Source: Blasia pusilla
Taxonomy: Eukaryota
NCBI GenBank assembly: GCA_050084515.1
Contig: CM114271.1
Location: forward strand, 11,470,001 to 11,534,000
Direction of reading: 5' to 3'
DNA: 64,000 bases
The position numbers were made by a program, and so were the translations under genes. Below the pieces are notes generated by a model, which worked only from the letters and a program-made list of their open reading frames with translations, did no database searches and was not told the origin of the DNA. Of the stretch, positions 7,293-37,307 are shown piece by piece; position 1 is the first letter of the stretch; each line of letters begins with the position of its first letter.

Positions 7293-8036
7293 TCATCAAA
7301 CCAGTTTTAGGCTTCTTTTCTTGTCTAAGATGTGCAGGATTCCTACTACCTGTCGGATTGCCATTACAGATTCCCAACCTGTTGGATTTTCGTGGGTGTA
7401 GGGTGGAATGGAATCACTTCTCAAAATATTTCCTTTCTTATGGTGAGCTTGCTTGCAAGGGGTGCAAGCCATCTGATTCCGACAGGTTGCAAGAGTTGCA
7501 ACCTGTAAAATTCTGACGGGTTGGGAGGGGTGCAGCTTCTCGATTTCTCAGATTTAGGATCTGAATGAAGGGACATCCCGTCCTCGTGGCAACCCGTCGG
7601 AGACCAACAGGTTGCGGGCCTTGCGGGATGCCTTGAACCCTCGGGAAGCGTGCAACATGTCAAAGCCGTCGGGTTGGTTTTTTTCACGTCCAGACTTCCA
7701 TAACGGTCAGCACGTCGCCGTCGGAAGGACGATGCGACCCAACGGTCAGCCCAACGGCTCGAAAAGTATAAATAAGGGAAGGTTCGCTCATTTCTGGTTT
7801 TTCATTTCGCGATCACAATTGCTCTTCCACGCAGTAGTTGACCAGATACCAAGGGGCGCTTTACACGGCAACTCATCGTGAGATGATTCGAGCGACCGAT
7901 CGCGAGACGATTCGAGCTACTCATCAAGGCGACTCATCGCGACATCAGCAAGGTGTCTCATCAAGGCAATTCCTCGAGCCGATTCATCATGCACAGAGAG
8001 CAATTTCCTTGTCCATAGGAGGCATTTTCGGGAACA

Positions 8037-10697: not shown

Positions 10698-10933
10698 TAG
10701 AGGCTATCTCACGTATTTCACGCCCTACAGATGTGAGCCGTGTTCGCGCATTCATGGGATTGGCGAACTTCTATCGGCGGTACGTCAAGGGATTCACTTT
10801 GATTGCAAAGCTGCTAACCTTACTGGCCAAGGTGGATCATGAGTGGCACTGGGGGGATGAGAAGGAGCAAGCATTTCAGTTGCTCAAGGACAAGTTGACG
10901 TTGGCGCCCATCTTGAGGAGACCAATCAGGGGG
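10698..10933 (+). repeat. Copy of flanking Gypsy RT segment 3623-3858 embedded in E1
   Basis: Near-identical to 3623-3858 (EAISRISRPTDVSR...LRRPIRG). Confidence 0.9.
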
Positions 10934-13197: not shown

Positions 13198-13574
13198 TGT
13201 GAGAAAACAGAAAGTGGCCTAGTCCGTCTGTGCGCTCACAGAAGAGCTTCGATGGAACCTGAACTGGGAGATAACTCGACATACGAGAATGCGCTACCGC
13301 TGCGGCTCCCAACTATTTGACTACTCAGGAAAACTAGGGTTTTTACCTATTTTTCTTTATTTCTATTAATAGAAAAAATATGGCATCAGGGTGCCCGGCA
13401 CCTTGATGCAATATAGGGTTAGATAAATAGTAACGCTGCTCCTAAAACCACCTACGTCATATTACTATGACTCCTTCGACGTCTAAGTCGGAACCATCAA
13501 TCTAGGCTTCTCCTCATACAAGGGGGCCGATCAGATTAATGGTGCTTAGAGAAGTGGATGTTGAGAATTCAACC
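13198..13574 (-). repeat. Copia 3' LTR (with internal deletions)
   Basis: Matches 17670-18105, except for a ~43-bp deletion between AAAGTG microhomologies and a second short deletion. Confidence 0.9.
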
Positions 13575-13599
13575 CCCCCCCCCCGCCCTCCTCAACATC

Positions 13600-16500: not shown

Positions 16501-17522
16501 CCTTTTTGTGAGACTAAAGAAATTGTGCCTTTCCCTTGTACAAGGCACTTTGCATTATTCCCAACAGTAACAACAATTGGCTCCTGTAGAGGCTGTAAGG
16601 AGCTATACCAATCCTTATGATTGATCATATGCCTAGATGCTCCACTATCGAGCATCCATGCATCTTCACTCTTTGACTTAGTGGAATGTTCTGCATGTGT
16701 GCAAAACTCTTTTATTGCTACCCAAACATCTACTTCATGTTCTCCTAGTTCTGCACAATTTTCAGACTCCTTCTTAGGTCTTAAAAAACCGTTCTTCTCA
16801 TCTTGACTCCTCTTTCTACAATCTTTGATAAGATGACCTAGCTTACCACAATAAAAGCATTTGAAGGCTTTTCTTGGAAATTTCTTCTTGACATTTGAAT
16901 TGTAATCTTGATTTCTACCTCTCTGTACGTTGGCAGTAAATGCTGCATCACTTCCCTCTCTTGCTGTGAAGCGCATTTCCTCTTCTACCAACATTGCACT
17001 AAATTGTTCAAAAGTAAGCGGCGTGGATCTTACTTGAGTATTCAGTGTAGTGACCAAATTGTCATACCTTGGAGGCAAAATCCTTATGCACCGACGTGCC
17101 AAATCTTTGCTAGACTTTGAAACTCCTACGGACGCCATCTGATCTTGAAGATTCTTGATCCTTGTCAAAAATTGCTCCGCACTTTCTCCTTCTGAAAATT
17201 TCTCGGACGTAAGCTGATTCTCCAGATTCTGAATCCGAGTCTCATTCCTCGTTTCATACTGATTCTTCAAAATGTTCCACGCCTCAACAACAGTGGTTGT
17301 ATGTTGAATGAGAGTCATGACAGAATCAGTTACATTCGTGACAATTGCATATAGAGCATCAGCGTTTCCGTGACTCCATGCCAACAATACAACAGGATCG
17401 ATATCCCAAGATGAAGATGAACATGCAGAACTCAAACTAGCTTGTGGATTTGAATCGACCCCTATGGCCGTTTCCCAAATCTCAAATGATTCGAGGATAA
17501 TTCTCATTTTCAACTTCCACAA
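13600..17522 (-). pseudogene. Copia gag-pol (disrupted)
   Basis: Zn knuckle CFYCGKLGHLIKDC, protease WMLDSGAS, integrase LELIHADLCG/TDRGGEF, RT LYVDDL, RNase H GFCDSDW. Confidence 0.92.
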
Positions 17523-17669
17523 CGTTTAGTTAGACCCATCTAACTTCCCTTCACCCAGCGGAGGAGGGCGATCACGAACTGAAGAAGAAGTAGCCATCTT
17601 TCAAGATTTTGTGCAAACATACTAGATCGCCAGATACAAAATACTGGAAAACCTATTGCACTGATATCA

Positions 17670-18105
17670 TGTGAGAAAAAAGAAAGTGACGAAATCACTG
17701 AAATCTTTACAAAACCTAGAGATACAAAGTGGCCTAGTCCGTCCGTACGCTCACATAAGAGCTTCGATGGAACCTGAACTGGGAGATAACTCGACATACG
17801 AGAATGCGCTACCGCTGCGGCTCCCGACTATTTGACTACTCGGAAAAACTAGGGTTTTTACCTATTTTTCTTCTTTTCTATTAATAGAATTTTTTTATCT
17901 AACCCTACATTGCATCAGGGTGCCCCGCATCCTGATGCAATATAGGGTTAGATAAACCTAGGAACGCTACTCCTAAAGCCACCTACGTCATATTACTATG
18001 ACTCCTCCGACGTCTAAGTCGGAACCATCAATCTAGGCTTCTCCTTATACAAGGGGGCGGATAAGATTAATGGTGCTTAGAAAAGTGGATGTTGAGAATC
18101 CAACA
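17670..18105 (-). repeat. Copia 5' LTR
   Basis: TG..CA, adjacent to the PBS, homologous to 13198-13574. Confidence 0.9.
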
Positions 18106-21100
18106 AAATTTGTGAACAATTGCTTGGAATCCCTGTACAAGGCGAGATCACGGCTGCTGAGGAGAAACAATTATGGGAAAATCTCGCATTTCTCGTTGAT
18201 CCTGAATGCTTCCGGAATTTGCTGTGTCAAATATGGGTACTGGATGGAAAGACGGCCGAAATGGATGCCATTTCCAGAATCAAGGCCAACTCCAGATTTC
18301 CATTCATTCAGAGATGGTTGTTCATGGGCCAGGGAGGCGAGGGATCTAGGGCCTATGTCTTCAAAATATCAACCACAAGTCCGTCGAGTGGCCTCGATCT
18401 TATAGATCGAATGAGGGAAGGGGAAGATCTTTACGGCTGTTGGGTAAGCTTTGATATTTGCTACAGAGTGCTGAACGGATGGTTGACGATGGATGCTCAC
18501 GTTTATGACCATGTGGAGAAGGGACTCAAAACTATATTTGTGTGTGAAGTAAAGGCAGAAGACGTTGGCAGTTTGAAGATGTGCTGGTTACTCTTATTGG
18601 AGGTGGTGAAGGAAAATAAAAGGCCACCTCCGGAAATTTATGGGTTCATGGCGAACAATGCACAACCTAGGTGGATTGCTATTAGGGAAGTGTTATGGGG
18701 TGAAGAGGTTCAATCGGAGAGGGAAAGGTCGGATGCTTTCCATGGGAAACAATCTGTGACCCGGTACATCAAATCTTGCATCAAGGAGAATAAGAGGACA
18801 GAGCATGTCACTCTACTCCAACGTTGCAAGGACAGCAAAACCTTGAAACAGGCCATGGAATGCCAAGAATAACTTCATTGGTGGTGGAGGAAGCATGCGA
18901 TTGAGGGGAAGTACAAAGAGTTGTGCTCTTGGTTGAGTTGGTGGACTATACATATGAGACAATGGGGAAACTTCATGCGGCAGGTGAGTTCACTATTTCG
19001 TCTTGTCACACGCTGAGAATTGTTTGAAAAGTTGCAGTTCAAGTTGAGAAGCGTGGGAACTATAGGGATTTCAAATCGAAGAAACCAAACAATTTGTTGG
19101 ATGGGACGGGTTGCTCGAGTGTGCAACCCGTCGGAAACGGACAGGTTGCCTGAGTGTGCAACCAGTCGGAAACCGATGGGTTGCATCGAGGAATTTGGTG
19201 CAACCCGTATACAAGTATGTAAGTTGCATGTATACAAGGCCTGCAAATAGTTCGACCCGGATGGGTTTCGGATGACTTGCAATTGGATCTTCCAGCCCGG
19301 AGTGGCCAAAGGTTCTTGCAACCCTTCGGAATCGGACGGGTTGCAGTAGGTGTTTCCTGGGTGTTGCAACACGTCAGGACCCGACGGGTCACAGAGTCCT
19401 TCATGGGATGCCTCTGCCTTGCAACCCATCTATTTCTGACAGATAGCTTATTTCTTTGACTTCTAAGCTATTTTCGTTCCCTTCTAACATTGCCGTCGTT
19501 GCAGGGATTGAACAGTCATGAAAATACCCTCTGCCCCAACACAAGTGGAGCAGAAAGTGTTCATTTCTCCTGGAGGTTGTCACAAGCATGCCAACAAATT
19601 TCACTTGTGGAGGCATGCCAACAAGACCAAGCAAGAGCAATGCTACAGTCTGCAGCATCCCATATCTTCCTCACAAAAGGCATAACAAAAGGAAGGGTCC
19701 TTCAATCTACGAGCTCTATGTCAGGGCGGCTGTGAGATCTGGTGATGAAAAACTCTATCTGGAAGCCTTCAACCAGTGCATAGCAGGAACTCCCCTCGAG
19801 CAAGGCGTACACATTGGTGGGGATATTCGTGGGCGCCTTTCAAGACGTCCCATACAGATGGTGGTAGAGCAGCCCGAGCGAGACTCGTGGAGACCAAATA
19901 AGTATTTTGACTTCAGGCAGATGAAGAGGCAACATCGAGGAATGAATCCGGTGATTGATTTGGATGAGGAAATCACGCCGACCAGGTATTCGCGGACCCC
20001 GGACCGCTCCCAAATCCATGATGGAGTAACTTCTCCAAAATCAATGAATGTTTTATTTCAAAAGCCCTCCGTTGCTGGAAGTTCGCAACATCCGGTTGGT
20101 GGGGTGGTTCAACAATATGGGATTCCGGTAATGGAGGTGGATTCCAACCTAAAATGGTGGCATATATCTCGGAGCAACCCAGGACGTGGACACACTTGCA
20201 GGGCAGGATCTGATGGCATTAGGAGAGCATGCAACACTTTCCTAAATAAGAACTGTACAAGGACTGGACGACCACTGCCTGGGTTTTGGGGACTCAAAAC
20301 CTTTGATCGTTTAGGGTGGACCGGGGATCAATTGAAGTACTTCTTCTGCCCAAATGAATCTTGCGCTTTCCGCAAGTCTTATTCGGCTGGCATTGGAGCT
20401 CCGGGGAATACCCCCACGATTTGGCCCATCGTTGCAGGTACGAACTGCACTCAAGACGAAGTGGACAATCTTACAAGTGCCGGTTTCAGACTCATAGACG
20501 GAGGAAGTTTGGAGCATGTTTGCATTACAGAGACCTTCGCATTTCATATTCAACCCAAGATTGATGTCAACATGTACCCGGAGAAGGTGGGGGGCTGGTA
20601 TTCTGGCAAGAGAGAGTAAGAGAGGAGAGGAAGAGAGGAAGAGAGGAGAGTCTCTCTTCAAAAAAAAGGGCCAAATCCGCCTCCTCTCTTCAAAAATTTT
20701 TGACACATTTGAAATTTTTGTTTGCTTTCAAATTCAGGAAATCTTTAGAAGAGAGTATTTAGTGATCCACATTTGGCCCTAAAAAAACCTCCTCTTTCCT
20801 AGGGGCGAGAAAAAAGGAGACATCATAAGACCACCCTAAACATTTTTCCATCACTCTCCATGTGAGCCTAAGTTTCTTAACATTCCCTGTCTCGGTCAAC
20901 AAAAAGCAGTGCCCTTGGTATTTTTGTTGGAGGACCACCCGGATGGGTACCTCTCTTTTTGCAGGGATTGTTGCCTGCATCATGGCCTCCCCTAAATTGC
21001 CCCATAACCAACTTTCTGTCGGTTATGAATGGTGTCTGCTCAAGAAAGTTGGTCTTGAGGAACAAATCAGATCCTTAGGCTGAGAAACCGAGAAGCTGCA

Positions 21101-22405
21101 CCCCTCCCAACCCGTAAGAAAGCTCACCATAAGAAAGGAAAGATTTTAAGAAGTGATTTTCTTCCACCCTGCACCCACGACGATCTAACGGGTTGGGAAT
21201 CCGAAATGGCAATCCGACAGGTAGTAGGAATCCTGCACATCTTAGACAAGAAAAGAAGCCTACAATTGGTTGGATGAATGAAGGGGAACGAGCCAAAAGT
21301 CAAGAAGCCCGCCACAATGCACCAAAAGTTGGTCTCACCGGGATAGAGTCCGATCACTCAAGCAGTCAACTTGTCAGAATCCGATAGGTTGCCTGGAAAT
21401 GGTTAAAAAGTTGCAGTTGGCAAAAAGCAAAAAGTTGGAATCATACGGGATGCAGAATTGTAATTCTGAGTAGCTAAAAGAACACAATCCACAAGACCAA
21501 AAACATATTCCAGCAAACTTTTACAAACACCAGTATGGGTTGAAAAAATCTCGTCCTTTATTACCTCCGAAGGAACCTCGGAAATGTACATTTCACTAGT
21601 CTATGATTTCTTCAGCCTCGTCATCTACAAATTTACTCCTAACTCTCCTCGGTGACAGTACCAAAGGAATGTCTTGGGATTCAAGTGGCTCCTCTGGCCG
21701 ATTGTAGACGGGGATCGAAAATATTGGCGAATTCGAGAGCCTTGGGCCCCCCCTAGGTACACCATAATGGTCCCATGTAACCTGTCTCGAGTCCCACCGC
21801 CTTCCTCGGCAGTATACCTTGTACGCTCTGCAATGTCACACCCATCCAGTATCAATATCTGCTCCGTCCCCGGTAATACCACTATGGCAACCGCACAGGT
21901 AGAAGGAATCCAACACATGTGAGAGAAGAAAAGAAGCCTACGCTTGCCTTTACGAGTTGAGGGGAAGGTGCCAAGGGAAGAAGCCCGCCAGACTGCCTCT
22001 TAAGTTGGACCAACAGGGAAAGGGTCCGATCAGACAACTTGTCGGAATCAGACAGGTTTCCTGGAGGTGGTAAAAAGGGTACAATGGTAAAAAAGCAAAA
22101 AGTTGCAAGGAGGAGAAATCCGACGGGTTGCAGTGGTCATAAAGTGAAAGTTGCAAGCAGGAGAAATCCGACGGGTTGCAAAGTAGAAGTCCGTGGAGTA
22201 CATAGACGATCGCATTCGAAAAGACAAAATGATCAGCAAACATTTACAAGCACCACCATCGATCGAAAAAATCTTCTGCTTTATATCATCCCAAAAAAGC
22301 TCGGAACTGTACATTTGATCTATTCTATGAAATCTTTTGCCTCATTATCAAAAAACTCCCTACTCTTAACGGTGCAGTCAAGCTGGGTCGTTGAGTTCTT
22401 TGAAC

Positions 22406-25400
22406 TCACTCGTCATCGTCCGAGAGCTCTTGCAAAATCACTTTCGGCCTTGCCCTCCCAATTTTGGGAATCGTTGGAAGTGACGATGGAGTCACTACCA
22501 AGGGTGGCTCTAGAACCGGAGCTCTCGGCTTCGGTGGAGAGTTGTACGCCCCAACGAGCCTTTCGTATTCTGCCTTTGCCTCCTTGCAAAGGTCAAACAG
22601 TTCCTGCCTTCCCTCGAGGCAAAGAATGTTCCTGTCACTCTGCCAGGCGCCTCTGATACTCGCCCCTGAAAGGCCCACTAACCCCGGGATACTCGCCCCT
22701 GAAAGGCCCACTAACGGGATGGAGTGGTCCATCTGTAAATCAGCACGTTGGAAACAATGTCAGAAACTAAAGAAGTCGCCTTGAGAACATTTTCAATAAC
22801 TGACTTTGGATCAACCTATCGGAGTCCGACGGGTTGTTTTGTCCCGGACCAACCCGTTGGAACCCGATGGGTTGCAGTTGCTTTTGGGTTTTCCCAGTTG
22901 ATTTTGGTTTTTGGATGCAACCCGTCGAAAGGCGACGGGTTGCTGGCCTAGAGCAGCCCATGCTCGCTTGAGAGCAACCCGTCGCTATCAGACGGGTTGC
23001 ATCCAAAAACCAAAATCAACTGGGAAAACCCAAAAGCAACTCCAACCCGTCGGGTTCCGACGGGTTGCAGGTACACCACGGTTTTCCCTGTGTATGTGGG
23101 AAAGATGCAACCCGTCGGAAATCGACGGGTTGCTCTCAGCCGAGCATGGGCTGCTCTAAGCCAGCAACCCGTCGCCTTCCGACGGGTTGCTCACGGACAA
23201 AAAAAACCCAGATTGACTCTCATTCTACACATCATTATAAGATAATTGAAATTATTGTATAGGAATTGAGCCTTATCCGAATCTGACTCGTCGCGGATCG
23301 GAGTGGGTACTCGTTTTTTATGATCCATGATTGTGCCGTCCTCCACTTTAGCGACCTCTTGACGCACTGGAGGTTGAAGAGCTCGTCCTCGCTCCCTCCA
23401 GTCAACACCAAGAAGCAGCCCCTGTCACTCAGATAGGCGTCTGCAAAGGAGAACAAAAGTGCAATCTGGTCATAAGTGAGCGGCACATTCCACTCAGGTA
23501 CCTCCTCCGACGGATTCTCGCCCCAAAGTCGCAACCCCGAGGGCAGATCGGCGATCAAGAGATCCACCGCAACCTCTTCGACCACTCCATTCACCGTCCA
23601 GGCAGCATGCCCGTTTCGTTGGAGCTTCCGTCCCAGCGTTGTCAATTTTTCGATGGCTCGTGTCGACGCTTGAGAAGTGAAGCTCTTCAGCTCATCCAGT
23701 AAAGGAGTGAACTGAAGGAGGACGCTTGTCCAGGTCGTTGTTTGTCTGTGTCTTCCCAAGGATGATGGGCTGTATTCTCCTTAGGACAACCCGAGCATCT
23801 CTCGCTTCCGCTTCTCCCTAGCCTGGGGATGGCTTGTCGGGGTTTCTATGACCTCGGATTCTGGTGGCGTTTTTTTCGCTAAGGACCTGGTCCGACCCTC
23901 TCTCCCCGCTCGTCCGGACGATTCCGCCTCAAGCCTTGAATCTTCAGCCTCTCTTTGGGAAGACTCGGCCTCTGAATTTTTCCCTCCCCTCGCCTTGCCT
24001 TTGAGACCCGCTGTGGATTTGTCTTTGGCTGTCCGGACCTTGGAAGCCAACTCAGTTGTCTTGTGGGCTTGCTCTTCTGCATCTCCTCCGAAGAAGTCTT
24101 CAGGCTGGACGAAATTGGGGATGTCGTCTTGTCCTGAGGCCACTGCATCATGAAGTACTCGCAAGTCCTTATCCGTGATGTCTTCAAGGTCATTGAAGTC
24201 GAGCCAAATGGGGCAATTCTCCACCTCCCTATCGGACATGTGCTGCCCCATCTCCACGTCGTACATGGAGAATGTCTCTGCATCCGGCGGCGAAGCCCAC
24301 AATTTCAAGGCTACCGGTAATTTTCCCCACGTACCTACGTTCTTACACTGGATGAGGTTCCTGAAGACCATCCGTTGGGCAGCTTTTAGTCGAACAGAAT
24401 CGGCCGTCTGCTCCTATAGATCTCGCTTCTTCTTCGCTTGATCCCGTTTGTTCCCCTCTACTTCTTCATCAAGCTCTATCTGAGGGAGGACGCAAACCTT
24501 GAACATGGTCTTGAATCCTGGGTTTTTGGTTGGCTTGTCCCGGATGTCGTCGAGCCAAACCTCGTAATCTCCAGAACTTTCAAGGTTTGCTTCCGGCGGA
24601 ATGGGATCTAATCTTCTGAGCTCCGCTTGCAGACCGTCAAGCACGGACTTCCCGATTACTTGCAACGCGTCCCAGAACGACCATTCGCGTAGCCAATGCG
24701 AGATCACTGGATCGGACACACCTGGAGGATGGTGTGCCGCCCTCTTCTGGGCCTCTGAGCCCTCGAGACTGATTTTCATCAGTCGTATCCTCCTGAACTC
24801 GCTTATCCCGGACAATGCAAACCGATCCATGCGGATCTTCATCCCTCTTCCGCTGGCGCTTGATAATCGCCTTCAGCTCCTTGTAGAACTTCGGACCAAG
24901 TTCGGGGTTGAGAATGCTGATGTATCGCTGCATCTTGCTCGCCGTGTATTTCATTGCAGCAGATACTGCAGCTTGGATGAATTTGGCGCGCTCAAACGCA
25001 GATACCTTCTACCTCCGCTCTAGCTCCAGTGCAGCGCTTTTCTTCGCGGCCTGTATCTTCGACCAGCAAAGGATGGCTACGGCTGCATCTTGAGAAATAA
25101 ACTTGTTTGCCCAAGTTTTCTTCTTAATCTGAGCACCCTTTGCAAGCATCTGATTGACGAGGGCATCGCCCAAGAACCCCCTGTACTCTCCCAGGTGCGT
25201 CGTAAGCACCTTCCTCACCCGATCGCAGTCCTGGATCCATTGGTGGGTGACATTCCCCTCCGATACAATCCTGCACATCCAAACTCAACCCGTCAGGAAA
25301 TAACATGGGTTCCTGCAACCCGTCGGACTCTGACGGGTCGTCACAGCTCAAGGTCGGATTCTAGCAACGAGCTAAATGATGCAACCCATCGGAGTCCGAC

Positions 25401-27278
25401 GGATTGCATTCAGATTTGCTAATGCCTGGTAAGCAAACCTTCGGAGTCCGACGGGTTGCTCGATAGCCCGCCTTGTGAGGATGTTTTTTGAAGAATGCAA
25501 CTCGTCGGACTCTGACGAGTTGTTCGAGTGATTGCAGGTTTAGAAGGTTTTTTCCCCAAAGCAACCCGTTGGAGTCCGACGGGTTGCTTGCCTCGAAGCT
25601 GTTTTTTCCCCAAAGCAACCCGTCGGAGTCCGACAGGTTGCTTGCCTCGAAGCTGTTTTTTCCCCATATCAACTCGTCGGAGTCCGACAGGTTGATTTCG
25701 GCCAAAAACAGTTTCGAGGCAAGCAACCCGTCGGACTCCGACGGGTTGCTTTGGGGGAAAAACCTTCTAAACCTGCAATCACTCAAACAACTCGTCAGAG
25801 TCCGACGAGTTGCATTCTTCAAAAACATCCTCACAAGGCGGCTTTGTCGAGCAACCCGTCGGACTCCGGACGGTTTGCTTTGGGCCAAAAACTAGTTAAA
25901 TCTATGTTCAATCAAACAAGTCGCCGGAGTCCGGCGAGTTGCAATCTTAAAAAACATCCAAAAGCGTGCGATCCGAACAACCCGTCGAGTCCGGCGAGTT
26001 GCTTTCGGCAAAAACAAACCTAACCCATTCATCAATCGAGCAACTCGCCGGAGTCCGACGAGTTGCGAAAAAGTGTTAAAGATACTCACGTGTTCATGGC
26101 ATGCATTGCCATCTCCACCGTCGCCATGTGATGAGGGTATGGGTGAAGGACCACCGCCTTCACGCAGAAATGTGCCTCAATGAGTTGGGCGGCTCCTCCA
26201 AACTTGGTCCACGCCATGAACCTGTGATTTCCATCCCGGATGAAGAAATGCGATTCCTCATCCGGCTGAATTCCGTGCCCTCAACTTGCCTTCTGAAGTC
26301 TTGGTCTCGCATCCTCCAGAATGTGTCGAGCTTTTCCAAGTCCTCCTCGGTAACCAGAGCTTGGGTTCCATGCTCGTCGTAAGGCTGAACATAGAAGGGA
26401 GGAAAGCTGTCGACGTAGGATGTTGTCGCCGCCGATTGTTTTAGCTTCGCGATGTCCTCGTCGGACTGAATTTCGCGGACGTATTCCATTGTCCACAATC
26501 GGCATAGTGGAATCCTCGGGGCATTGTGGCCCTCCATGAGTGCCATCTGCTTTACCACCTGTCAGAAACCGGGACAAGAGGAATAAGCTACACTGAAATC
26601 CCAATGAATTGCAATTCACATAATTAAAAAAACCCAGAACCTCTCTTACCCGCTCGAAAATGGGGTCGGTTTCTTGACCAGCTAACTTGTCTGAGACAGA
26701 GGCTGGAAAATCGACTAGGAACTCGTCGATCAGATAGAGGTCGATGTCCTCCGCTGGGCTTGGAGTCGAGAATGACCGCTCTCCGGCTTCTTCGGCCATG
26801 TCCACCATCTCCACGCTGGCGGTCCTCATGACCTCGTCGTCATCGATTTCAACTTCTATTGTTTCCACTATGTTGATTGTGTCCCCGACTTCGTGGGGGA
26901 CATTTACCGCATCTCAACACTTGCGGTTGGACGGGCTGGGCTATCGTCAATGGCTATCGCTTTTTCCCTCCTCGCTTTAGCCAATTCTTCCCTCCTCACC
27001 GACGCGTCCAGACGCTTCTTTTCTCTCTTTTCGTCGGCAATCCTTTTCTTCAAGGCCTGCAACGTCTCGGCCTCTGCGTTCTGTTTATCTAGCGCCTCTT
27101 GAACACGTCTCGCAAGAAGCACTTGGTTGTGCATCTCCGCTTCCCTTTCCCGCTCCTCGATTTCCTGCTGCCTAATTTCATTCGCCGAACGAGGCCCAGG
27201 AGAAGCTGACGTAGGAGTCCTAATGGACTTCGGAGTGAAGCTCCCAGACTTGTTGGCTTGTGATTTTTTCCTCGTCAT
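22406..27278 (-). pseudogene. E2 gene B: ParB/Srx-like domain plus beta-class amino-methyltransferase-like domain; three exons (27278-26090, 25270-~23275, 22732-22406)
   Basis: DGNHRFMAW at ~26211-26240; VDLLIADLPSG and YLSDRGCFLVL (ORF 23235-23759); LVGLSGASIRGAWQSDRNILCLE (22406-22732). Palindrome-filled introns sit at the same positions in other copies; the intron 2 donor is mutated here but is GT in E3. Confidence 0.65.
25310..26070. repeat. Array of 27-bp palindromes (GCAACCCGTCGGAnTCCGACGGGTTGC) in gene B intron 1
   Basis: Perfect copy at 25723-25749 and many variants. Similar clusters at ~9260-9960, 10950-11880, 19080-19440, 22810-23190, 27650-28010, 31670-31930, 48980-49380, 50370-50950 and 53770-54150. 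Confidence 0.95.
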
Positions 27279-27552
27279 TTTTGCCGGAAATGCCTCCACC
27301 TATGTCCACGAAGAATTCCTTGATCAATCGCCTAGTTGATGTCGAGATGGGAGCTCGAATCGCCTTGATGGTTAGCTCGAATCGTCCCGTTATCGCTCGG
27401 TCGAACCGTCTCGCTCTCGTTCCCTCCTATCGACTCGCGATGTGTCGCCGTGTGAAATGCCCTTCAGATCGATCGATCGGCCGCTGCTGGAGAGTGAGGA
27501 GTGAGGAATGAAGATCGCGAAATGAGAAACCAGAAATGAGCGATTTCTGCCC

Positions 27553-28350
27553 TATTTATACTTTTCTAGCCGTTGGGCTGACCGTTGGGTCCCGTCGTCC
27601 TTTCGACGGCGACGTGCCGGATGTTACGGAAGTCCGGACGTGAAAATGGCAACCCGTTGGAGTGCGATAGGTTGCGCGGCTCCGCCATCCTGGGTACGTC
27701 GCCACGTGCGCGAGCAACCCGTCGGAGACCGACGGGTTGAGCGCCTCCGTCATCTTCGGAAAAGAACGCGAGGTACACGCGCAACCCATCGGAGACCGAC
27801 ATGTTGCGCGCCTCCGCCATCCAGGGTACGTCGCCACGTGCACGAGCAACCCGTCGGAGACCGACGGGTTGAGCACCTCCGTCGTCTTCGGTAAACAACA
27901 CGAGGTACCCGTGCAACCCGTCGGAGACCGACATGTTGCGCGCCTGTGCCGTGTTTGGGACGGGAACGGGACGTATCTTGGGCAATCCGTCGGAGACCGT
28001 TAGGTTGCACGCTTCCCTCATCAAGGGTTAGGAACGAGGGCTTCCCGTGCAAGTCGTTGAAGAGTGTGGAACAGACGGTTTGCACCACTGGCGTAAGGCC
28101 GGTTAGCCGGGTAATTTCCGACAAGTTACCAAGACTCCTGAGTTACCAAGACGGGTTCCAAGTGTGATCGCAACCCTCTCGCTTCCCAAATCCGGTAACA
28201 TATTGCAACAAAATTGAATGTGTTCTGGAATTGGATCCATTTTGTCAGACAATGTCACCCACCGAATTCATCGTGTCAGTAAAAATCTGTCAGGAGTATC
28301 TGTTTCCTACTCACTATAAATTAAATATTCTCATTCTCATTCTCATTCTC
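27553..28350. promoter_or_regulatory. Putative divergent promoter between genes B and A
   Basis: TATAAATA on minus (27560-27553) and TATAAAT on plus (28315-21) followed by (TTCTCA)n. Both are conserved in E1 (~7767, ~11973). A palindrome array lies between them. Confidence 0.6.
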
Positions 28351-28378
28351 AGTCTCCTCCCGTTGAAATCTTCTTGGA

Positions 28379-31300
28379 ATGGATAATTATGTTAAGCTCA
28401 CTTGTGGCGATCATCGCGGCCCTTCGCCAATCGGAAATCATTCGACCCCAAGCTCGTGAGTCTTTCATAGCAAAGATGGATGAAAATTTTACATCATTCG
28501 ATTTCTTCTTCAAATTGGAACCATCTTTGTATCCAAAGATGTTAGGGTGGACGGTACGGAAGACATAATAGGTGAGACGGTCCAGCCAGTGACCTCAGAC
28601 CGTAAAGTATGGAATCTCCTACCTCTACCAAACGATCAATACAGAGTTTACGGCCTGCCCTTGAATTCGTCTGTTTCCCAAGTAGATGGTCTAGAATTTC
28701 CTAGTGCTCCGAGCTCTACGTTTGCAACTCCAAGCTCTGCAGATCCGGCTTCGACTCCAACTTCGTACGCTTGTAACAATGTTGTTTTTCCAAAAGAGAT
28801 TCCGGATGTTATCAACCTCAGTGGATCTGTCGGGCACCAATCGGGCCCTCTCTCCGCCCACTCGTTCCTCTTGCGAGTATCAGGCAATAGTTTGCTTTCG
28901 TCTCTGCCCTTGAAAATGTTCAAGCACATTCTTGTCGCATTTGCCGCCCACGTACGATGGTAATTGCATTTTTGAGTTGCCTCCACTTGCTGCTCCTGCT
29001 CAAAAGAAGGATGGAGGACCCTGAAGGGTATGGACAGAAAGTCTTATTGTCATCGATGGTGCAGGCTTCAACAGACCAGTGCTTCAATTCCAGATGGTCC
29101 TTGGATTGTCTCCCGCCGCCAATGCGTGGGAGCCTTGGAGTGTAGAAGTCCAGCATGCCCGTATCTAGAGCGCAACGGGCGAGTCAATACGTCGCAATTC
29201 CCTCCCAAGAATGCAGAAACTCCATACGAGGTCGGTGCCACCATACCACCGGGAGGCCATCGATGTCCTCATTGTCAGGCATCACCCTTCTGCGTTGGAG
29301 CGTGTCATGCATACATATTTTTCATTGTCCACGACTTGGGCTCCACGTCAGAGTATACAAGGCTGGCAGTTCATGTTGGCTCCCACACTCATCCTGTGAC
29401 CGATGCAATTCAAAGACACATCAAGGAGGATGTGGCGAAGAAAGTAGCCGTGGTCTACAATAACTCTCCGGGTTCAAAGCGCGGAGTGATCAAGCTCACA
29501 ACGGCATCATAAATGTGTGAACAATTGCTTGGACAGGGCGAGATCACGGCGGTTGAGGAGAAACAACTCTGGGAAAATCTCGCATTTCTCGCTGATCCTG
29601 AATGCTTCTGGAATTTTTTGCGTCAGATACGAGTTCTGTATGGAAAGACGGCCGAAATGGATGCCATCGCCAGAATCAAGGCCAACTCCAGATTTCCATT
29701 CATTCAGAGATGGGAGTTCATGGGCCAAGGAGGCGAGGGATCCAGGGCCTATGTCTTCAAAATGTCAACCACAGGTCCGTCGAGTGGCCTCGATCTTATA
29801 GATCGAATGAGGGAATGTAATGTCTAAGTGTTTCCTATTTACAGTCAATTGTAGAGTTCGATCCCCAAGAGGATCATTGTTGGATAAAAAGAGAGTATAA
29901 AGTGATGATTATGTGGTAAAAGTGTAATTGATTATGTAATTCAAATGTAATATTCCAGTAACATCTTCCGATCCTTTTTAGTACCTATGTTTTCTTCTTC
30001 AATTCTCTCGAGTGGAGTTTAAAGTATGCTTAGGAAATTTGTTCTCTCGACATCTCGGAACCTCACAGAGACCTCAAGAATAAAGCTCGCTTCTCCTACT
30101 TTGGAACTCAATCCGTCGGGGCAGGTTACTCTCTGTCAAACAGATTTCATACAACTTTATGTTGATTATTCCATTGATGAGAAAGGTTCGCCTGATTCAC
30201 TCTTCACTCGGCAGACCCAAAAAGAATATTCAGACATAAGCATCGCACATCAGAATGAATGAATGAATGCTTTAATACTCCATCAAGAATTGGAAGACTT
30301 CAAAGTATATACAAGCTCGAGAGGGTACAACTCTCTTGCTCGGACCATTCCTACAGCATAAGGACTTCATGAGCGAATGATAATAATAGCTTTTGTCCTG
30401 TTTCTTAAATATTCTCGAGAGTAGGAGCGTTTCTATGATCCAAAGCGTTCTTGATGAAGTTGGTGTCTCTTCAATATCTGTAACTACCTAGATGTATGGT
30501 TCTCTTAGCTTTTCCTACGACCCCTGTGAATCCGCGGTACAAAATTGTTCTAACTACCAATTTGATACAAAGGGTCGCGCCCTTTCCTAGTCTAATTGTT
30601 TAAACTATGTGTCGGTTCGAATCACAATCATGCTGAGCTTCGCTGTGCTAAATTTCCGGAGGACGGAGTTCTTCATTCTTCTTCGTCTTCGTGCTTCGTG
30701 CTTCGTACTTCGGTCAAGAGCGAAGTACTTTGTATATAGAGCTTCGTTGAGCTTCGTTAGACTTTGTTAAGCTTCGCGTTGATCCTTTATACTTCGTTAG
30801 AGCTTTTGATTCTCCTCTAAGGCAAATCCTTGATCTTCCATCTCTCTGCCTTGTCTTAAGAGCTTGGTGATTCACTTATTCTTCTTCATAATAATAAATA
30901 ATCATAATCAAAATCATAATATACAAGAGTCTTCGTTGAATAAAAAGATATATTCTTCAAGATTACAAAATTGTGGGTATCATAGGGAAGGGGAAGATCT
31001 TTACGGGAGCTGGGTAAGCTTTGATATTTGCTACAGAGTGTTGAACGGATGGTTGACGATGGGTGCTCACGTTTATGACCATGTGGAGAAGGGACTCAAA
31101 ACTATATTTTTCGTGAAGTAAAGGCGTAAGACGTTGGCGGTTTGAAGATGTCTTTGGTTACTCTTACTGGAGGTGGTGAAGGAAAACAAAAGGCCACCTC
31201 CGGAAATTTATGGGTTCATGGCGGACAATGCACAACCTGGGTGGATTGCTATACGGGAAGTGTTCTGGGGTGGAGAGGTTCAACCGGAGAGGGAAAGGTC

Positions 31301-33493
31301 GGATGCTTTCAATTGGCAACTGTCTTTGACCCGGTACACCAAATCTTGCATCAAGGAGAATAAGAGGACAGAGCATGTCACTCTACTCCAACATTGCAAG
31401 GACAGCAAAACCTTGAAGCAGGCCATGGAATGCCAGGAAGAACTTCATGGGTGGTGGAGGAAGCATGCGATTGAGGGGAAGTACAAAGAGTTGTGCTCTT
31501 GGTTGAGTTGGTGGACTGTACGTATGAGACAATGGGAAAACTTCATGCGGCAGGTGAGTTCACTATTTTGTCTTGTCAAGCTCACGCTGAGAATTGTTTG
31601 TAAAGTTGTAGCTCAGGATGAGAAGCGTGGGAATTATATGGATTTCAAACCCAAGAAACCAAGCAAGCTGTCGGATGCGACGAGTTTCCCGAGTGTGCAA
31701 CCCGACGGAAACCGACGAGTTGCATCCAGATGTTTGGTGCAACCCGAGTGTGCAACCCGTCGGGACCCGACGGGTCACAGAGTCGTTCATGGGATGCATC
31801 GGCCTTGTAACCCGTCGGGTTCCAACGGGTTGCAGTAGGTGGGTTTAAGGTTACAACACGTCGGGACCCGACGGGTCGTAGAGTCCTTCATGGGATGCCT
31901 CGGGCCTGCAACCCGTCTGGTTCCGACAGGTCGCTTATTTCTTTGACTCCTGTGTTATTTTCGTTCCCTTCTAACATTGCCGTCGTTGCAGGGATTGAAC
32001 GTTCATGAAAATGCCCTCTGCCCCAACACAAGTGGAGCAGAAAGTGTTCATTCCTCTTGGAGGTTGTCACAAGCATGCCAACGAATTTCACTTGTGGAGG
32101 CATGCCAACAAGACCACGCAAGAGCAATGCTACAGTCTGCAGCATCCCATATCTTTCTCACAAAAGGCATAACAAAAGGAAAAGGACCGTCGATCTACGA
32201 GCTCTATGTCAGGGCGGCTGTGAGATCTGGTGATGAAAAATTGTATGTTGAAGCCTTCAACCGGTGCGTAGCTGGAACTCCACTCGAGCAAGACGTACAC
32301 ATAGGTGGGGATATTCGTGGGCGGGTTTCAAGGCGTCCCATACTGAGATGGTGGTAGAGCGATCGAACGAGACTCGTGGAGACTAGATAAGTATCTTGAC
32401 TTCAGGCAGGTGAAGAGGCAGCATCGAGGAACGAATCTGGTGATTGATTTGGATGAGGAAATTACACCGCCCAGGTATTCGGGGACCCTGGACCCGTCCC
32501 AAATCCATGATGGAGTTACTTCTCCAAAATCAGTGAATGTTTTATTTCAAAGCCCTCCGTTCTTTGGAAGTTCGCAACATCACATCCAGGGTGGTTCAAC
32601 AATATGGGATTGCGGTAATGGAGGTGGATTGCAACCTAAAACGGTGGCATATATCTCGGAGCAACCCAGGACGTGGACCCACTTGCAAGGCAGGATCTGA
32701 TGGCATTAGGAGAGCATGCGGCACTTTCCTAAATAAGAATTGTACAAGGACTGGACGACCTCTGCCTGGGTTTTGGGGACTCAAAACCTTTGATCGTTTC
32801 ACGAGGACCGGGGATCAATTGAAGTACTTCTTCTCCCAAATGAATCTTGCGCTTTCCGGAAGTCTTATCCGGCTGCCATTGGAGCTCTTGGGAATACCCC
32901 CACGATTTGGCCCATCGCGCCATGAGCAAGGCGCACTCAAGACGAAGTGGACAATCTTACAAGTCTTTGGTTTTGAGACTCATAGACAGTGAAGTTTGAG
33001 CATGTTAGCATTCTGAGAGACCTTTGCATTTCGTATTCAACCCAAGATTGATGTCAACATGTACCCAGAGAAGGTGGATGATCTCAATCCATTATTTTTG
33101 TTTGAGTCTAGAAATGGGGTGAAGAGAAACAGAATGTGTAGGCGAACTGTGGAGAGACCAAAGCGAATTGCATCAGCTCGGGAGGAAAAAATGGAGATCA
33201 TTGCCACGAAAGATGTCTTGAGTGGCAATGGAATAGGAAGGATGTATTGGGTCATGAACAACATTGTAAATTCAAGTGTCACAAGGGTGTATGTGATGCA
33301 CATCTGTTGCTTTCCCACATGTTCATGTGATGACTTTGTCCAAAGAGAGACAAGTGGCAAAAGGTATTTCCCTTGTAAGCACATGTACTATGTGTTGCTG
33401 GTAGTTTTAAGAGAGTCAGAGGTAGGAGTAGGAATCCACCAACCAATTCTGTCCCTCAAAGAAGTTCGAAGTATTTTAAACAAACCACTTTGA
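28379..33493 (+). pseudogene. E2 gene A: GCM-like, MULE DDE transposase and SWIM
   Basis: QCVGALECRSPACPY..CPHC..CHA..HVGSHTHP; WVSFD; FMADNA; NTSGAESVHSSW; CSCDDFVQRETSGKRYFPCKH. Intron 31554-31991. Interrupted by a solo LTR. Confidence 0.85.
29816..30984 (-). mobile_element. Solo LTR (TGTGATACC..CATTACA family)
   Basis: TSD GGGAA (29811-15 and 30985-89). Homologous to 37308-38583, 44068-46263 and 47666-48937. Confidence 0.85.
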
Positions 33494-34734
33494 GGATGCA
33501 AAATGAGGTTTTAGATTGTACTTTTATTTTTCTCTCAACCTTCACTTCGAGCTTGAACTCTATTCAGCCCCGGGAAAATGACATATTTTTTCCACACCTT
33601 GGATGGAAAAAGTGATTGGTTCCACACTTATGATTCCACTGATTTTTCAGTTTTCTAAATTTTGTGCAATTTGCAACTTGTCGGACTCAGAGGGGGTTGC
33701 CAAAATATGGAAGAGGAAAAAAAAAACTGTGGGACTGCTTAATATATGAACAAAAAAGTGCAAAAAATTTCAAACAAAAATTTTCCTCTCTTCAAGCCAA
33801 CGGAAACTCTCTTCAAAAAAACGTATCTATTTCGGTTGACCCTAGTTTCCTCTCTCCTCTCTCCTCTCTCCTCTCTTCCTCTCTTCCTCTCTTCCTCTCC
33901 TCTTACTGCACCTCGAGAAGGTGGATGATCTCAATCCACTATTTCTGTTTGAGTCTAGAAATGGAGTGAAGAGAAATAGAATATGTAGGCCAACGGTGGA
34001 GAGAGCAAAGCGAATTGCATCAGCTCGGGAGGCAAAAATGGAGATCATTGCCACAAAAGATGTCTTGAGTGGCAATGGAATAGGAAGGATGTATTGGGTC
34101 AGGAACAACACTGTAAATTCAAGTGTCACAAGGGTGTATGTGATGCACATCTGTTGCTTTCCCACATGCTCATGTGATGACTTTGTCCAAAGAGAGACAA
34201 GTGGCAAAAGGTATTTCCCTTGTAAGCACATGTACTATGTGTTGCTGGTAGTTTTAAGAGAGTCGGAGGTAGGAGTAGGAATCCACCAACCAATTCTGTC
34301 CCTCAAAGAAGTGCGAAGTATTTTAAACAAACCACTTTGAGGATGCAAAATGAGGTTTTAGATTGTACTTTCATTTTTCCAGAACCTTCACTTTGAGCTT
34401 GAACTCTATTGAGCCCAGGGCAAATGATAGATTTTTTCCAGACCTTGGATGGAAAAAGTGATTGGTTCCACACTTATGATTTCACTGATTTTTCAGTTTT
34501 CGAAATTTTGTGCAATTTGCAACCGGTTGGACTCAATGGGTTGCCAAAATATGGAAGAGGAAAAAAAAATGTGGGACTGCTTAATAACTGAGCAAAAAAG
34601 TGCAAAAAAATTCACACAAAAATTTTCCTCTCTTCAACGCAAGAGAAACTCTCTTTAAAAAAAAGTATATATTTCGGTTGAAGGTAGTTTCCTCCCTCCT
34701 CTCTTCCTCTCTTCCTCTCCTCTTACCGCACCTC

Positions 34735-37247: not shown

Positions 37248-37307
37248 TAGAGAACCAAAAACTTTTTGGCGCCCCGGAAACGGTGCCAAAAAGATTCTGG
37301 TTCTCTA

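What the first reader, a model, noticed from the sequence alone, without database searches (positions are those of the whole stretch)
22810..28010. 27-bp CpG-rich palindrome concentrated in introns, promoter and subterminal DNA
Seen: GCAACCCGTCGGA-N-TCCGACGGGTTGC (13-bp arms, four CpGs; perfect at 25723-25749) recurs dozens of times. It fills both gene B introns, the gene A intron and the intergenic region, is essentially absent from exons, and I did not see it in the neighbouring retroelements. Surrounding spacers diverge between copies E1-E5 while the motif persists. Inference: a selected cis-site for a dimeric binder (gene B product or the GCM-like domain).
Basis: partly seen in the sequence, partly recalled or inferred. 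Interest (0 to 1): 0.78.

Follow-up and report, generated by a model that had tools for sequence, protein, structure and literature searches.

The report
Palindrome arrays inside a Mutator-like transposon
The 27-base palindrome is a real repeated signal found only in the non-coding parts of one family of large cut-and-paste transposons in a plant-like genome, most likely serving as docking sites for a protein the transposon itself encodes.

Summary
GCAACCCGTCGGA-N-TCCGACGGGTTGC occurs 36 times at ≤3 mismatches (0 expected) and 93 times at ≤7. All 93 lie inside copies of one transposon family, and 0 of 36 in the complete copy lie in coding-like sequence.

"Gene A + gene B" is one 13.3-kb DNA transposon (20590-33914) with defined ends and a 9-bp target duplication. 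It is nested in an older copy (4229-34734). A 596-bp miniature derivative (45324-45919) also carries four palindromes. The 9-10-bp duplications, a DDE-like core whose model best matches an IS256-family transposase and feature hits to MULE clusters place it near Mutator, although Pfam is negative.

The motif sits in at least 7 arrays whose spacers are unrelated (motif identity 0.74; spacers 0.37, same as shuffled). Within arrays it evolves no more slowly than its spacers, and it decays mainly at CpG/CCG sites.

Best reading (0.55): cis binding sites for an element-encoded protein, analogous to VANC targets in VANDAL21, TnpA sites and Muta1 subterminal repeats. The binder is unidentified. A ParB-like reading of gene B is only a weak lead.

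The parts
20590..33914 (+). E2: complete 13.3-kb copy of the transposon. Left end GGGGGCTGGTATTCTGGCA..., right end ...CTCCTCTTACTGCACCTC. Carries gene B (- strand) and gene A (+ strand), transcribed divergently.
   Evidence: End motifs found by scan. Junctions read. The host copy E1 continues at 33924, and 33060-33886 matches 33907-34722 at 92%.
20581..20589 (.). Left copy of the 9-bp target-site duplication GAGAAGGTG of E2. The right copy is at 33915-33923.
   Evidence: Read directly.
21366..22179 (.). Degenerate palindrome copies in the left non-coding region of E2: 5 copies at 5-7 mismatches, 0.8-1.6 kb from the left end.
22811..23190 (.). Array of 7 palindromes downstream of gene B, arranged as nested foldbacks. 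Arms 22850-22944/22973-23067 are 93% complementary; arms 22917-23003/23104-23190 are 92%.
23235..27278 (-). Gene B, a degenerate copy with stops and frameshifts. TATAAATA at about 27553-27560 and ATG at about 27278. Exon 1 runs to about 26650 and intron 1 is about 26559-26649 with no palindrome. Exon 2 runs to about 26090 and intron 2 is about 25271-26089. The remaining reading frames run down to 23235.
   Evidence: E1/E2 alignment, ORF list, and Pfam with no family. Splice sites are inferred and no RNA joint was seen.
25271..26089 (-). Large intron of gene B, holding 12 palindromes at <=6 mismatches plus one copy with a deletion. Period is 54-64 bp. Includes an inverted duplication with arms 25485-25640/25670-25825, 92% complementary.
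   Evidence: The RNA fold has an MFE of -523.9 kcal/mol against -267.6 for shuffles, z = -30.8.
27649..28008 (.). Array of 6 palindromes between the divergent genes B and A. Period is 65-67 bp with a 132-bp higher-order unit. Local CpG observed/expected is 1.39.
28228..33076 (+). Gene A, the transposase-like gene. It has a Cys/His-rich N-terminal region, then a DDE-like core (WIMFD / GFMAD motifs). It is interrupted by an unrelated 1.18-kb insertion at 29801-30984.
   Evidence: 142 homologues by phmmer and alignments A1 and A3. The model has pLDDT 82.9 and its best fold matches are ISCth4 transposase chains, E = 6.4e-4. The insertion is absent from other genomic copies (joints 29801-30984).
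31697..31934 (.). Array of 5 palindromes in the non-coding gap (putative intron) of gene A. The same position holds palindromes in E1 (19123-19392) and E3 (53803-54050).
33673..33699 (.). Single degenerate palindrome about 240 bp from the right end. The matching position holds one in E3 (55891) and E4 (56697), and a shortened copy at about 34525 in E1.
4229..34734 (+). E1: older copy flanked by the 10-bp duplication AGTTGTAACC, inserted in a Gypsy pol gene. It is split by a Copia (13211-18104) and by E2. Palindrome arrays lie at 5212-7615, 9254-9952 (gene B intron), 10955-11879 (upstream of gene A) and 19123-19392 (gene A gap). Its left part is rearranged, with gene B on the + strand at 7681-10701.
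45324..45919 (+). T3: 596-bp non-autonomous derivative with the family's ends and a 9-bp duplication (GACAGTGAG / GACAGTGAA, 8 of 9). Holds 4 palindromes (45475-45717) in a foldback.
46264..51665 (-). E5: diverged copy, 67-81% identical to E2 in alignable parts, in opposite orientation. Arrays lie at 48982-49236 (the same relative position as 22811-23190 in E2, with unrelated spacers) and at 50369-50947.
53135..56925 (+). E3 (3' part of gene A plus tail, right end 56120), inserted in the tail of E4 (right end 56925). Palindromes at 53803-54050, 55891 and 56697.

Best explanation
The palindrome is a family-specific cis element of a large Mutator-like DNA transposon. The autonomous form (13.3 kb) carries two divergently transcribed genes. 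One is a DDE transposase-like gene (A) with a Cys/His-rich N-terminal region. The other is an accessory gene (B) of unknown family.

The 27-bp site (core GCAACCCGTCG-N5-CGACGGGTTGC) is multiplied as short tandem arrays with 54-100-bp periods. The arrays lie in the shared promoter region, in the large intron of gene B, in the non-coding gap of gene A, downstream of gene B and near the ends. Miniature derivatives keep it.

I infer that it is the docking site of an element-encoded, probably dimeric, sequence-specific protein, and that high local site density is what matters. The effect would be to mark 'self' copies for transposase assembly, for transcriptional activation or anti-silencing, or for both, as shown for VANC on VANDAL21, TnpA on En/Spm and the transposases of Muta1 and AtMu1. 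Arrays are rebuilt by slippage and inverted duplication in the active lineage, so spacers turn over while the site persists. After insertion each copy decays neutrally, fastest at its methylatable CpG/CCG positions.

Shown: the element's structure, the motif's distribution, and the array turnover. Inferred: protein binding, the identity of the binder, and the effect.
For: Motif reality:
- 36 hits against 0 expected.
- The two half-sites pair only at spacing 14.

Element definition:
- Ends plus 9-10-bp target duplications in 3 of 3 copies where both ends are visible: E2 GAGAAGGTG, E1 AGTTGTAACC, T3 8 of 9.

Transposase assignment:
- 142 homologues of the gene A core.
- AF2 model with pLDDT 82.9. 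Its top five PDB matches are ISCth4 (IS256-family) transposase chains, E = 6.4e-4 to 4.5e-3, followed by retroviral integrase cores.
- Atlas feature hits to clusters carrying PF10551 MULE, scores 0.93-0.94.

Distribution:
- 93 of 93 instances lie inside family copies.
- 0 of 36 in E2 lie in coding-like sequence, which is 45% of E2.
- 4 instances in the 596-bp derivative T3.

Persistence through array turnover:
- Between 7 array classes, motif identity is 0.742 and spacer identity 0.369, against 0.374 for shuffled spacers.
- The positionally equivalent arrays of E2 (22811-23190) and the diverged E5 (48982-49236) share the motif but not the spacers.
- The per-copy consensus is the same in E1, E2, E5, T3 and E3/E4.

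Precedents, read as passages:
- VANC21 binds a short motif arrayed as rapidly changing tandem repeats in introns, intergenic and terminal non-coding regions of a MULE (PMC5735166).
- Muta1 subterminal repeats raise transposase binding and excision (PMC5499845).
- AtMu1 transposase binds and activates cognate copies (10.64898/2026.08.24.746577, abstract and section 7).
Against: - No binding, methylation or accessibility data were available.
- No DNA-binding family could be assigned to either gene product.
- In 15 reciprocal-best unit pairs the motif changes as fast as its spacer: 0.153 against 0.126, p = 0.16; non-CpG positions 0.114, p = 0.58.
- In E1/E2 columns the motif (0.77-0.82) is no better kept than exons or the small intron (0.85). 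The lower spacer value (0.65-0.67) may reflect misaligned array units.
- Of 333 departures from consensus, 102 are CpG transitions and 29 are C>T at the CCG cytosine, which is the pattern of unprotected methylated DNA.
- Motif instances were selected by likeness to the consensus, which inflates motif identity.
- Only one window was examined, with a few related and mostly dead copies.
Confidence: 0.55

Rival explanations
1. Neutral structural by-product. A palindrome-bearing minisatellite spreads inside the element by replication slippage, template switching and inverted duplication because hairpin-prone DNA is unstable. It has no function for the element or the host.
For: - Copy number and arrangement differ between copies. 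E1 has a direct array where E2 has a 450-bp foldback.
- There are several inverted duplications: 22850-23067, 25485-25825, 45530-45644, and 4638-7293 in E1.
- The motif evolves no more slowly than its spacers within arrays.
- The decay spectrum is dominated by CpG/CCG transitions.
- Arm-to-arm complementary double changes are 30 against 15.5 expected (1 of 2000 permutations reaches 30). Many are inherited within arrays, so this is weak.
Against: - Slippage copies motif and spacer together. It cannot place the same 27-mer into at least 7 arrays whose spacers are as unlike as shuffled sequence.
- It does not explain why the same consensus is kept in a copy 67-81% identical to E2.
- It does not explain complete avoidance of coding-like sequence or retention in the miniature derivative, though disruption of reading frames would also be selected against.
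Confidence: 0.25
2. RNA-level element. The arrays are transcribed as intronic or untranslated hairpins that feed small-RNA pathways. This would either be the host's handle for silencing the family (like the Mu killer inverted duplication, recalled) or a self-limiting device of the element.
For: - The gene B intron of E2 folds into a roughly 200-bp near-perfect hairpin: MFE -523.9 against -267.6 kcal/mol, z = -30.8.
- RNA reads from three runs of the same species label cover the intronic arrays at depths like the exons (0.37-0.86 in bin 25587-26003). Their loose ends match the E1-type intron.
- Sasaki et al. 2023 (abstract only) report that RdDM targets exactly the non-coding VANC-target regions.
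Against: - The long foldback is specific to E2. E1 has direct repeats at the same place.
- The arrays in the untranscribed-looking intergenic region and near the ends do not need RNA.
- RNA coverage is only 61-71 reads per run and no small-RNA data were available.
- This reading is compatible with, and not exclusive of, protein binding.
Confidence: 0.12
3. The intronic arrays are nested insertions of foldback-type miniature elements of the same family, not parts of the parent element.
For: - The family does make miniature derivatives that carry the palindromes in a foldback (T3).
- Family members insert into one another repeatedly: E2 in E1, E3 in E4, T3 in E5.
Against: - No family end motif lies beside the intronic or intergenic arrays.
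- The arrays occupy the same positions in E1, E2, E3 and E5, so they were in the common ancestor.
Confidence: 0.05

Closest known systems
VANDAL21 (Hiun) and its anti-silencing protein VANC21 in Arabidopsis (Hosaka et al. 2017, PMC5735166, passages read; Sasaki et al. 2023, PMC10398659, abstract read)
   Same: - A Mutator-superfamily element with accessory gene(s).
- A short motif specific to the family and rare elsewhere.
- The motif is concentrated at high density in introns, upstream/intergenic and terminal non-coding regions and absent from exons.
- The motif is carried in tandem repeats whose number and sequence change quickly between related copies.
   Different: - Here the site is a 27-bp CpG-rich palindrome. 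VANDAL21 has a 9-bp AT-rich motif arrayed in one orientation.
- This element has clear ends, whereas I recall VANDALs as lacking long TIRs.
- Gene B shows no detectable likeness to any Pfam family, so it is not shown to be a VANC relative.
- Binding and hypomethylation are untested.
Muta1 of Aedes aegypti, a 'type 2 foldback' MULE (Liu and Wessler 2017, PMC5499845, passages read)
   Same: - A MULE with 8-9-bp target duplications.
- Short tandem repeats that multiply transposase binding and raise excision.
- A palindromic pattern matters for binding of its terminal motif.
   Different: - Muta1 repeats are 12 bp, not palindromic, and sit inside the 145-bp TIRs.
- Here the arrays are mostly internal (introns, promoter, 3' flank), up to kilobases from the ends.
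- This element is four times larger and has a second gene.
En/Spm (CACTA) TnpA-binding 12-bp subterminal motifs. Recalled; related work in 10.64898/2026.08.24.746577, abstract and one section read.
   Same: - Many copies of one short site for an element-encoded regulator.
- Some sites occur as inverted pairs bound by dimers (recalled).
- The sites are tied to promoter control and methylation state.
   Different: - A different superfamily: no CACTA ends and no 3-bp duplication here.
- The sites here are strict 13-bp-arm palindromes and extend into introns.
Bacterial ParB-parS (recalled biology)
   Same: - A palindromic site, sometimes in several copies.
- Gene B exon 2 has an IPLCRL...FFIWDGNHR pattern, shared with a 35%-identical homologue.
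- Its language-model features are nearest to clusters of which some carry ParB_N (11% of members), DUF6551 (98%) or DUF3723 (31%).
   Different: - No profile or structure method supports the link. Pfam, NCBIfam, PHROGs, PADLOC and PDB profiles are all negative.
- The model is unusable, pLDDT 38.
- The host is a eukaryote.
- No helix-turn-helix was identified.

Membership tests
Mutator superfamily (MULE) DNA transposon | Target-site duplication of about 9 bp (8-11) | tested here: met
   Met in 3 of 3 copies with both ends visible: E2 9 bp GAGAAGGTG, E1 10 bp AGTTGTAACC, T3 9 bp with 8 of 9 identical.
Mutator superfamily (MULE) DNA transposon | DDE transposase with an RNase H-like core related to IS256 | tested here: inconclusive
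   The model has pLDDT 82.9. The top five Foldseek PDB hits are ISCth4 transposase chains (E = 6.4e-4 to 4.5e-3, probability 1.00), but TM is only 0.30-0.34 over 146 columns. Conserved WIMFD and GFMAD motifs appear in alignment A3. That ISCth4 is an IS256-family member and that IS256 is kin to Mutator are recalled.
Mutator superfamily (MULE) DNA transposon | Match to the Pfam MULE transposase domain (PF10551) or Transposase_mut | tested here: not met
   No Pfam family for the window ORFs, even at E <= 10. None for 37 of 37 members of alignment A1 or for the 707-724-aa homologues. The only support is atlas feature likeness to clusters carrying PF10551, scores 0.93-0.94.
Mutator superfamily (MULE) DNA transposon | Terminal inverted repeats | tested here: inconclusive
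   The two ends are defined and recur: left at 4229, 20590, 45324 and 51665(-); right at 33914, 34734, 45919, 56120 and 56925. They resemble each other only loosely (G-rich tip, then a GA-rich run), and no long perfect TIR was seen.
   A Cys/His-rich block ending in H-x-H-P is conserved with homologues P0145 and P0149. Pfam gives no family for it. No structure was predicted for this part.
VANC-type sequence-specific anti-silencing system | [quoted passage not shown] | tested here: met
   compared with the description in PMC5735166.
VANC-type sequence-specific anti-silencing system | A VANC homologue encoded by the element | tested here: not met
   No Pfam family on any gene B ORF. No homologue was found for the C-terminal ORF among longer proteins. 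That VANC carries a named Pfam domain is recalled.
VANC-type sequence-specific anti-silencing system | Protein binding to the motif with local loss of DNA methylation | not testable with these tools
   Needs ChIP/EMSA and methylome data.
ParB/Srx-fold protein with a parS-like palindromic site | ParB N-terminal (ParB/Srx) domain in gene B | tested here: inconclusive
   The only support is atlas feature hits and a DG-x-HR-like motif, whose meaning is recalled. All profile searches were negative. The AF2 model failed at pLDDT 38.4.
CACTA (En/Spm) subterminal TnpA sites | CACTA termini and a 3-bp target duplication | tested here: not met
   The ends read GGGGGCTGG... and ...GCACCTC, with 9-10-bp duplications.

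The most novel reading that the evidence does not exclude
Gene B encodes a ParB/Srx-fold DNA clamp or bridging protein, a eukaryotic transposon-borne counterpart of bacterial ParB. Its relatives may include the DUF3723 accessory genes of fungal Starship elements. The 27-bp palindromes would be its parS-like loading sites. Dense arrays in the promoter, introns and flanks would let the protein coat or condense the 13-kb element, either to shield it from silencing or to bring its distant ends together for transposition. That would be a partition-type DNA-binding module recruited by a plant-lineage cut-and-paste transposon.
Probability: 0.1. Interest if true: 0.85.

Novelty: new variant of a known kind. 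Interest (0 to 1): 0.5.

Why it matters
Arrays of a family-specific recognition motif in transposon non-coding DNA have been worked out experimentally mainly in Arabidopsis VANDALs, maize En/Spm and a mosquito MULE.

This case would show the same design in a distant, Pfam-invisible Mutator-like lineage. Its named relatives are in liverworts. The site is unusually long, palindromic and methylatable.

That gives a clean, testable pair: one 27-mer and two candidate proteins. It could address how large DNA transposons recognise their own copies and interact with DNA methylation outside flowering plants.

It also corrects the annotation. "Gene A" and "gene B" are parts of one mobile element nested several times, not host genes.

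Tried and rejected
- **Whole genome of the window:** not held.
- **Literature search for the motif letters:** 188 papers with chance primer-like matches, none relevant among the 20 listed.
- **Metagenome scan for the palindrome core:** 2 loci, both single occurrences in bacterial-looking contigs, unrelated.
- **Sequencing runs:** no RNA holder listed.
- **Laid RNA reads:** too few to show splicing (61, 71 and 69 reads); no joint at the predicted introns. One recurrent loose end, at 22681, has no match in the window.
- **Gene B identity:**
  - Pfam, NCBIfam, PHROGs, PADLOC, and PDB phmmer and profile searches were all empty or gave chance-level hits.
  - The search among longer proteins for the C-terminal ORF found nothing.
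  - The AF2 model from 3 sequences was unusable (pLDDT 38.4), so no fold search was run on it.
- **Fetching ParB sequences for a profile-profile comparison:** I left it there.
- **A simple inversion between E1 and E2 for the opposite orientation of gene B:** rejected, because segment order is not that of a single inversion.
- **Arm covariation as evidence for a hairpin:** 30 observed against 15.5 expected. Set aside as inconclusive, because many of the double changes are inherited within arrays.
- **Literature on bryophyte Mutator elements with palindromes:** nothing relevant. A search for ParB in Mutator-like elements also gave nothing relevant among the 15 listed. These searches cover only the held open-access library.

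Full report
**1. The observation**

The pattern GCAACCCGTCGGA-N-TCCGACGGGTTGC has 36 matches in the window at up to 3 mismatches, against none in 100 dinucleotide-preserving shuffles. The perfect copy is at 25723-25749. Relaxing the threshold gives 88 instances at <=6 mismatches and 93 at <=7.

At <=2 mismatches there are 66 forward and 67 reverse half-sites. Of these, 43 pair up, always with the same spacing and never another.

The position table of the 88 instances shows which positions are kept:
- Best kept: CAA (positions 2-4) and its mirror TTG (24-26), 94-100% on the family consensus, and T9/A19 (92-95%).
- Freest: the central positions 12-16.

The conserved core is therefore GCAACCCGTCG-N5-CGACGGGTTGC.

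**2. What surrounds it**

The window is repeat-rich eukaryotic DNA. It holds a Copia element (13211-18104, with LTRs at both ends), Gypsy fragments and a LINE.

The complete copy, E2, runs from 20590 (GGGGGCTGGTATTCTGGCA...) to 33914 (...CTCCTCTTACTGCACCTC). It is flanked by the 9-bp duplication GAGAAGGTG at 20581-20589 and 33915-33923.

Insertions are nested repeatedly:
- E2 sits in the 3' tail of an older copy, E1 (4229-34734). E1 is flanked by AGTTGTAACC on both sides and splits a Gypsy pol gene.
- E1 is also split by the Copia.
- Its left part is rearranged. There is a large inverted duplication at 4638-7293. Gene B lies on the + strand at 7681-10701, truncated and joined to a 236-bp Gypsy fragment.
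- A 596-bp derivative, T3 (45324-45919), has the same ends and a 9-bp duplication matching at 8 of 9 bases.
- A diverged copy, E5, lies in the opposite orientation at 46264-51665. It is 67-81% identical to E2 where alignable.
- E3 (right end 56120) is inserted in the tail of E4 (right end 56925).

A DNA run of the same species label shows very high summed contig depth over the whole element, so the family is abundant. That run also shows that 29801-30984 inside gene A is a later insertion, absent from other copies.

**3. Which kind of transposon**

Pfam finds nothing in any gene A or gene B reading frame, even at E <= 10.

The gene A core (ORF 18096-18872 in E1) has 142 homologues by exhaustive phmmer. 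None of the 37 aligned members carries a Pfam family. Two homologues are named, from the liverworts Calypogeia fissa and Riccia sorocarpa.

An AlphaFold model from that alignment has pLDDT 82.9. Its five best PDB matches are chains of the ISCth4 transposase (E = 6.4e-4 to 4.5e-3, TM 0.30-0.34), followed by retroviral integrase cores. That ISCth4 belongs to IS256, the bacterial kin of Mutator, is recalled.

The language-model atlas places the ORF next to clusters carrying PF10551 MULE, with scores 0.93-0.94. Longer homologues align with the window's N-terminal Cys/His-rich block and with conserved WIMFD and GFMAD motifs. E1 has GFMAN at the second.

Together with the 9-10-bp duplications in 3 of 3 testable copies, this supports a Mutator-like element of a lineage that the curated models do not cover. 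The Pfam criterion itself is not met.

**4. Where the palindromes are**

All 93 instances lie inside copies of this family. None lies in the retroelements or elsewhere.

In E2 the 36 instances form discrete groups:
- five degenerate copies at 21366-22179;
- seven at 22811-23190, downstream of gene B;
- twelve (plus one with a deletion) in the large gene B intron, about 25271-26089;
- six between the divergent genes, at 27649-28008;
- five in the non-coding gap of gene A, at 31697-31934;
- one at 33673, about 240 bp from the right end.

None lies in the 5,996 coding-like bases, which are 45% of E2. The small first intron of gene B (about 26559-26649) has none.

The same positions carry arrays in E1, E3 and E5. 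T3 carries four.

The gene models are inferred. The evidence is a TATA box and ATG, GT..AG boundaries and frame continuity between E1 and E2. RNA reads were too few to show splice joints (61-71 per run). They are in the sense orientation for both genes and also cover the intronic arrays. Loose ends of those reads match the E1-type intron.

**5. Motif versus spacers**

Each array has its own spacer family, with periods of about 54, 57, 64, 67 and 100 bp.

Between seven array classes the mean pairwise motif identity is 0.742. Spacer identity is 0.369, indistinguishable from shuffled spacers at 0.374. This includes the positionally equivalent arrays of E2 and E5. The motif consensus computed separately for E1, E2, E5, T3 and E3/E4 is the same.

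Recent tandem amplification alone therefore does not explain the pattern. The 27-mer has been kept or re-seeded while everything around it was replaced. One caveat: instances were chosen by likeness to the consensus.

**6. Results against ongoing selection**

- *Paired units.* In 15 reciprocal-best pairs of array units, partnered by spacer likeness (which favours the spacers), the motif mismatch rate is 0.153, or 0.114 at non-CpG positions. The spacer rate is 0.126. Neither difference is significant: p = 0.16 and 0.58.
- *E1/E2 columns.* Motif columns are 0.77-0.82 identical, exons 0.85, the small intron 0.85, the promoter 0.78 and intron-2 spacers 0.65-0.67. That last value is probably lowered by non-equivalent array units.
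- *Substitution spectrum.* Of 333 departures from consensus, 198 are transitions. Of those, 102 are at the four CpG positions of the half-site and 29 are C>T at the CCG cytosine.
- *State of the copies.* The copies in this window are dead, with stops and frameshifts in gene B and a lost catalytic D in E1. They decay like methylated DNA.

Any constraint must therefore have acted in the active lineage, not on these copies.

**7. Structure-forming potential**

The E2 intron array includes an inverted duplication with 156-nt arms at 92%. As RNA it folds at -523.9 kcal/mol, against -267.6 for shuffles, z = -30.8. E1 has a direct array at the same place, so the long foldback is not a constant feature.

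Complementary double changes in the two arms number 30 against 15.5 expected, and 1 of 2000 permutations reaches 30. Many are shared by descent within arrays, so this is inconclusive.

CpG observed/expected is 1.4-1.5 in the intergenic region and 0.87 over E2. The retroelements are at 0.43-0.75.

**8. Gene B**

Exon 2 (ORF 8797-9237 in E1) has one homologue, P0144, at 35% identity. They share IPLCRL... and FFIWDGNHR.

Atlas features put it beside clusters in which 11% of members carry ParB_N, 98% DUF6551 or 31% DUF3723. DUF3723 is a conserved accessory gene of fungal Starship transposons (10.1101/2021.12.13.472469, passages read). That DG-x-HR marks the ParB/Srx fold is recalled.

No profile search supports the link. 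The three-sequence AlphaFold model failed at pLDDT 38.4. It remains a lead only.

**9. Interpretation**

The pattern is a family-specific short site, absent from exons, piled up as fast-changing tandem repeats in the promoter, introns and terminal non-coding DNA of a Mutator-like element with an accessory gene.

Hosaka et al. describe the same pattern for VANC21 targets in VANDAL21 (PMC5735166, passages). It also parallels the repeat-number-dependent transposase binding of Muta1 (PMC5499845, passages) and the self-activating AtMu1 transposase (preprint, abstract and section 7).

I therefore rate element-encoded protein binding as the most likely function (0.55). The rivals are:
- a neutral hairpin-prone minisatellite (0.25);
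- an RNA hairpin or small-RNA role (0.12);
- nested miniature elements (0.05).

The palindromy and fixed arm spacing fit a dimeric binder but would equally fit a hairpin.

**10. Novelty**

The design is known. What is new:
- the long CpG-rich palindromic site;
- its mainly internal placement;
- the Pfam-invisible lineage, with relatives in liverworts;
- the uncharacterised second gene.

Searches of the held literature found no description. These cover open-access papers and preprints only.

Noticed in passing
window 3493-4228 and 34745-35298: A Gypsy pol gene (RNase H part, then integrase zinc-binding part) is split exactly by the 30.5-kb E1 insertion. The reading frame resumes across the duplicated AGTTGTAACC.
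   Followed up: partly
window 4638-7293: The left part of E1 is a large inverted duplication (arms 4818-5159/6334-6675 at 96%). It creates a second, inward-facing left end at 6718-6736. Gene B of E1 lies in the opposite orientation to gene B of E2. A single inversion does not explain the segment order.
   Followed up: partly
window 10698-10933 and 3623-3858: A 236-bp Gypsy RNase H fragment, 96% identical to the flanking Gypsy, is joined in frame to the truncated gene B of E1. This could be a captured or rearranged fragment.
   Followed up: no
window 29801-30984, 37307-38581, 47794-48761: An unclassified repeat of about 1.2 kb. One copy interrupts gene A of E2 and another interrupts E5. DNA contigs of a run of the same species label join 29801 to 30984, so most family copies lack it.
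   Followed up: partly
window 8797-9237 (+) and 26160-26561 (-): Gene B exon 2 carries IPLCRL... and FFIWDGNHR, shared with a 240-aa ENA protein (P0144). Language-model features point to ParB_N, DUF6551 and DUF3723-like clusters, but every profile search was negative.
   Followed up: partly
window 18096-18872 versus 31146-31838: E1 has asparagine where E2 and all aligned homologues have the second conserved aspartate (GFMAN against GFMAD). The E1 transposase would be catalytically dead even without its insertions.
   Followed up: no
window 33060-34722 and 55287-56924: The apparent 847-bp and ~775-bp tandem repeats after gene A are not tandem duplications. They are the tails of two nested elements lying side by side (E2 within E1, E3 within E4).
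   Followed up: yes
window 27276-28008: The region between the two divergent genes is CpG-island-like (observed/expected 1.4-1.5, GC 0.53-0.64). The right tail of the element is strongly CpG-depleted (0.33).
   Followed up: no
window 22681: In two RNA runs, 4-5 reads match up to 22681 and then continue into sequence not present in the window. This could be a splice joint or a copy with a different neighbour.
   Followed up: partly
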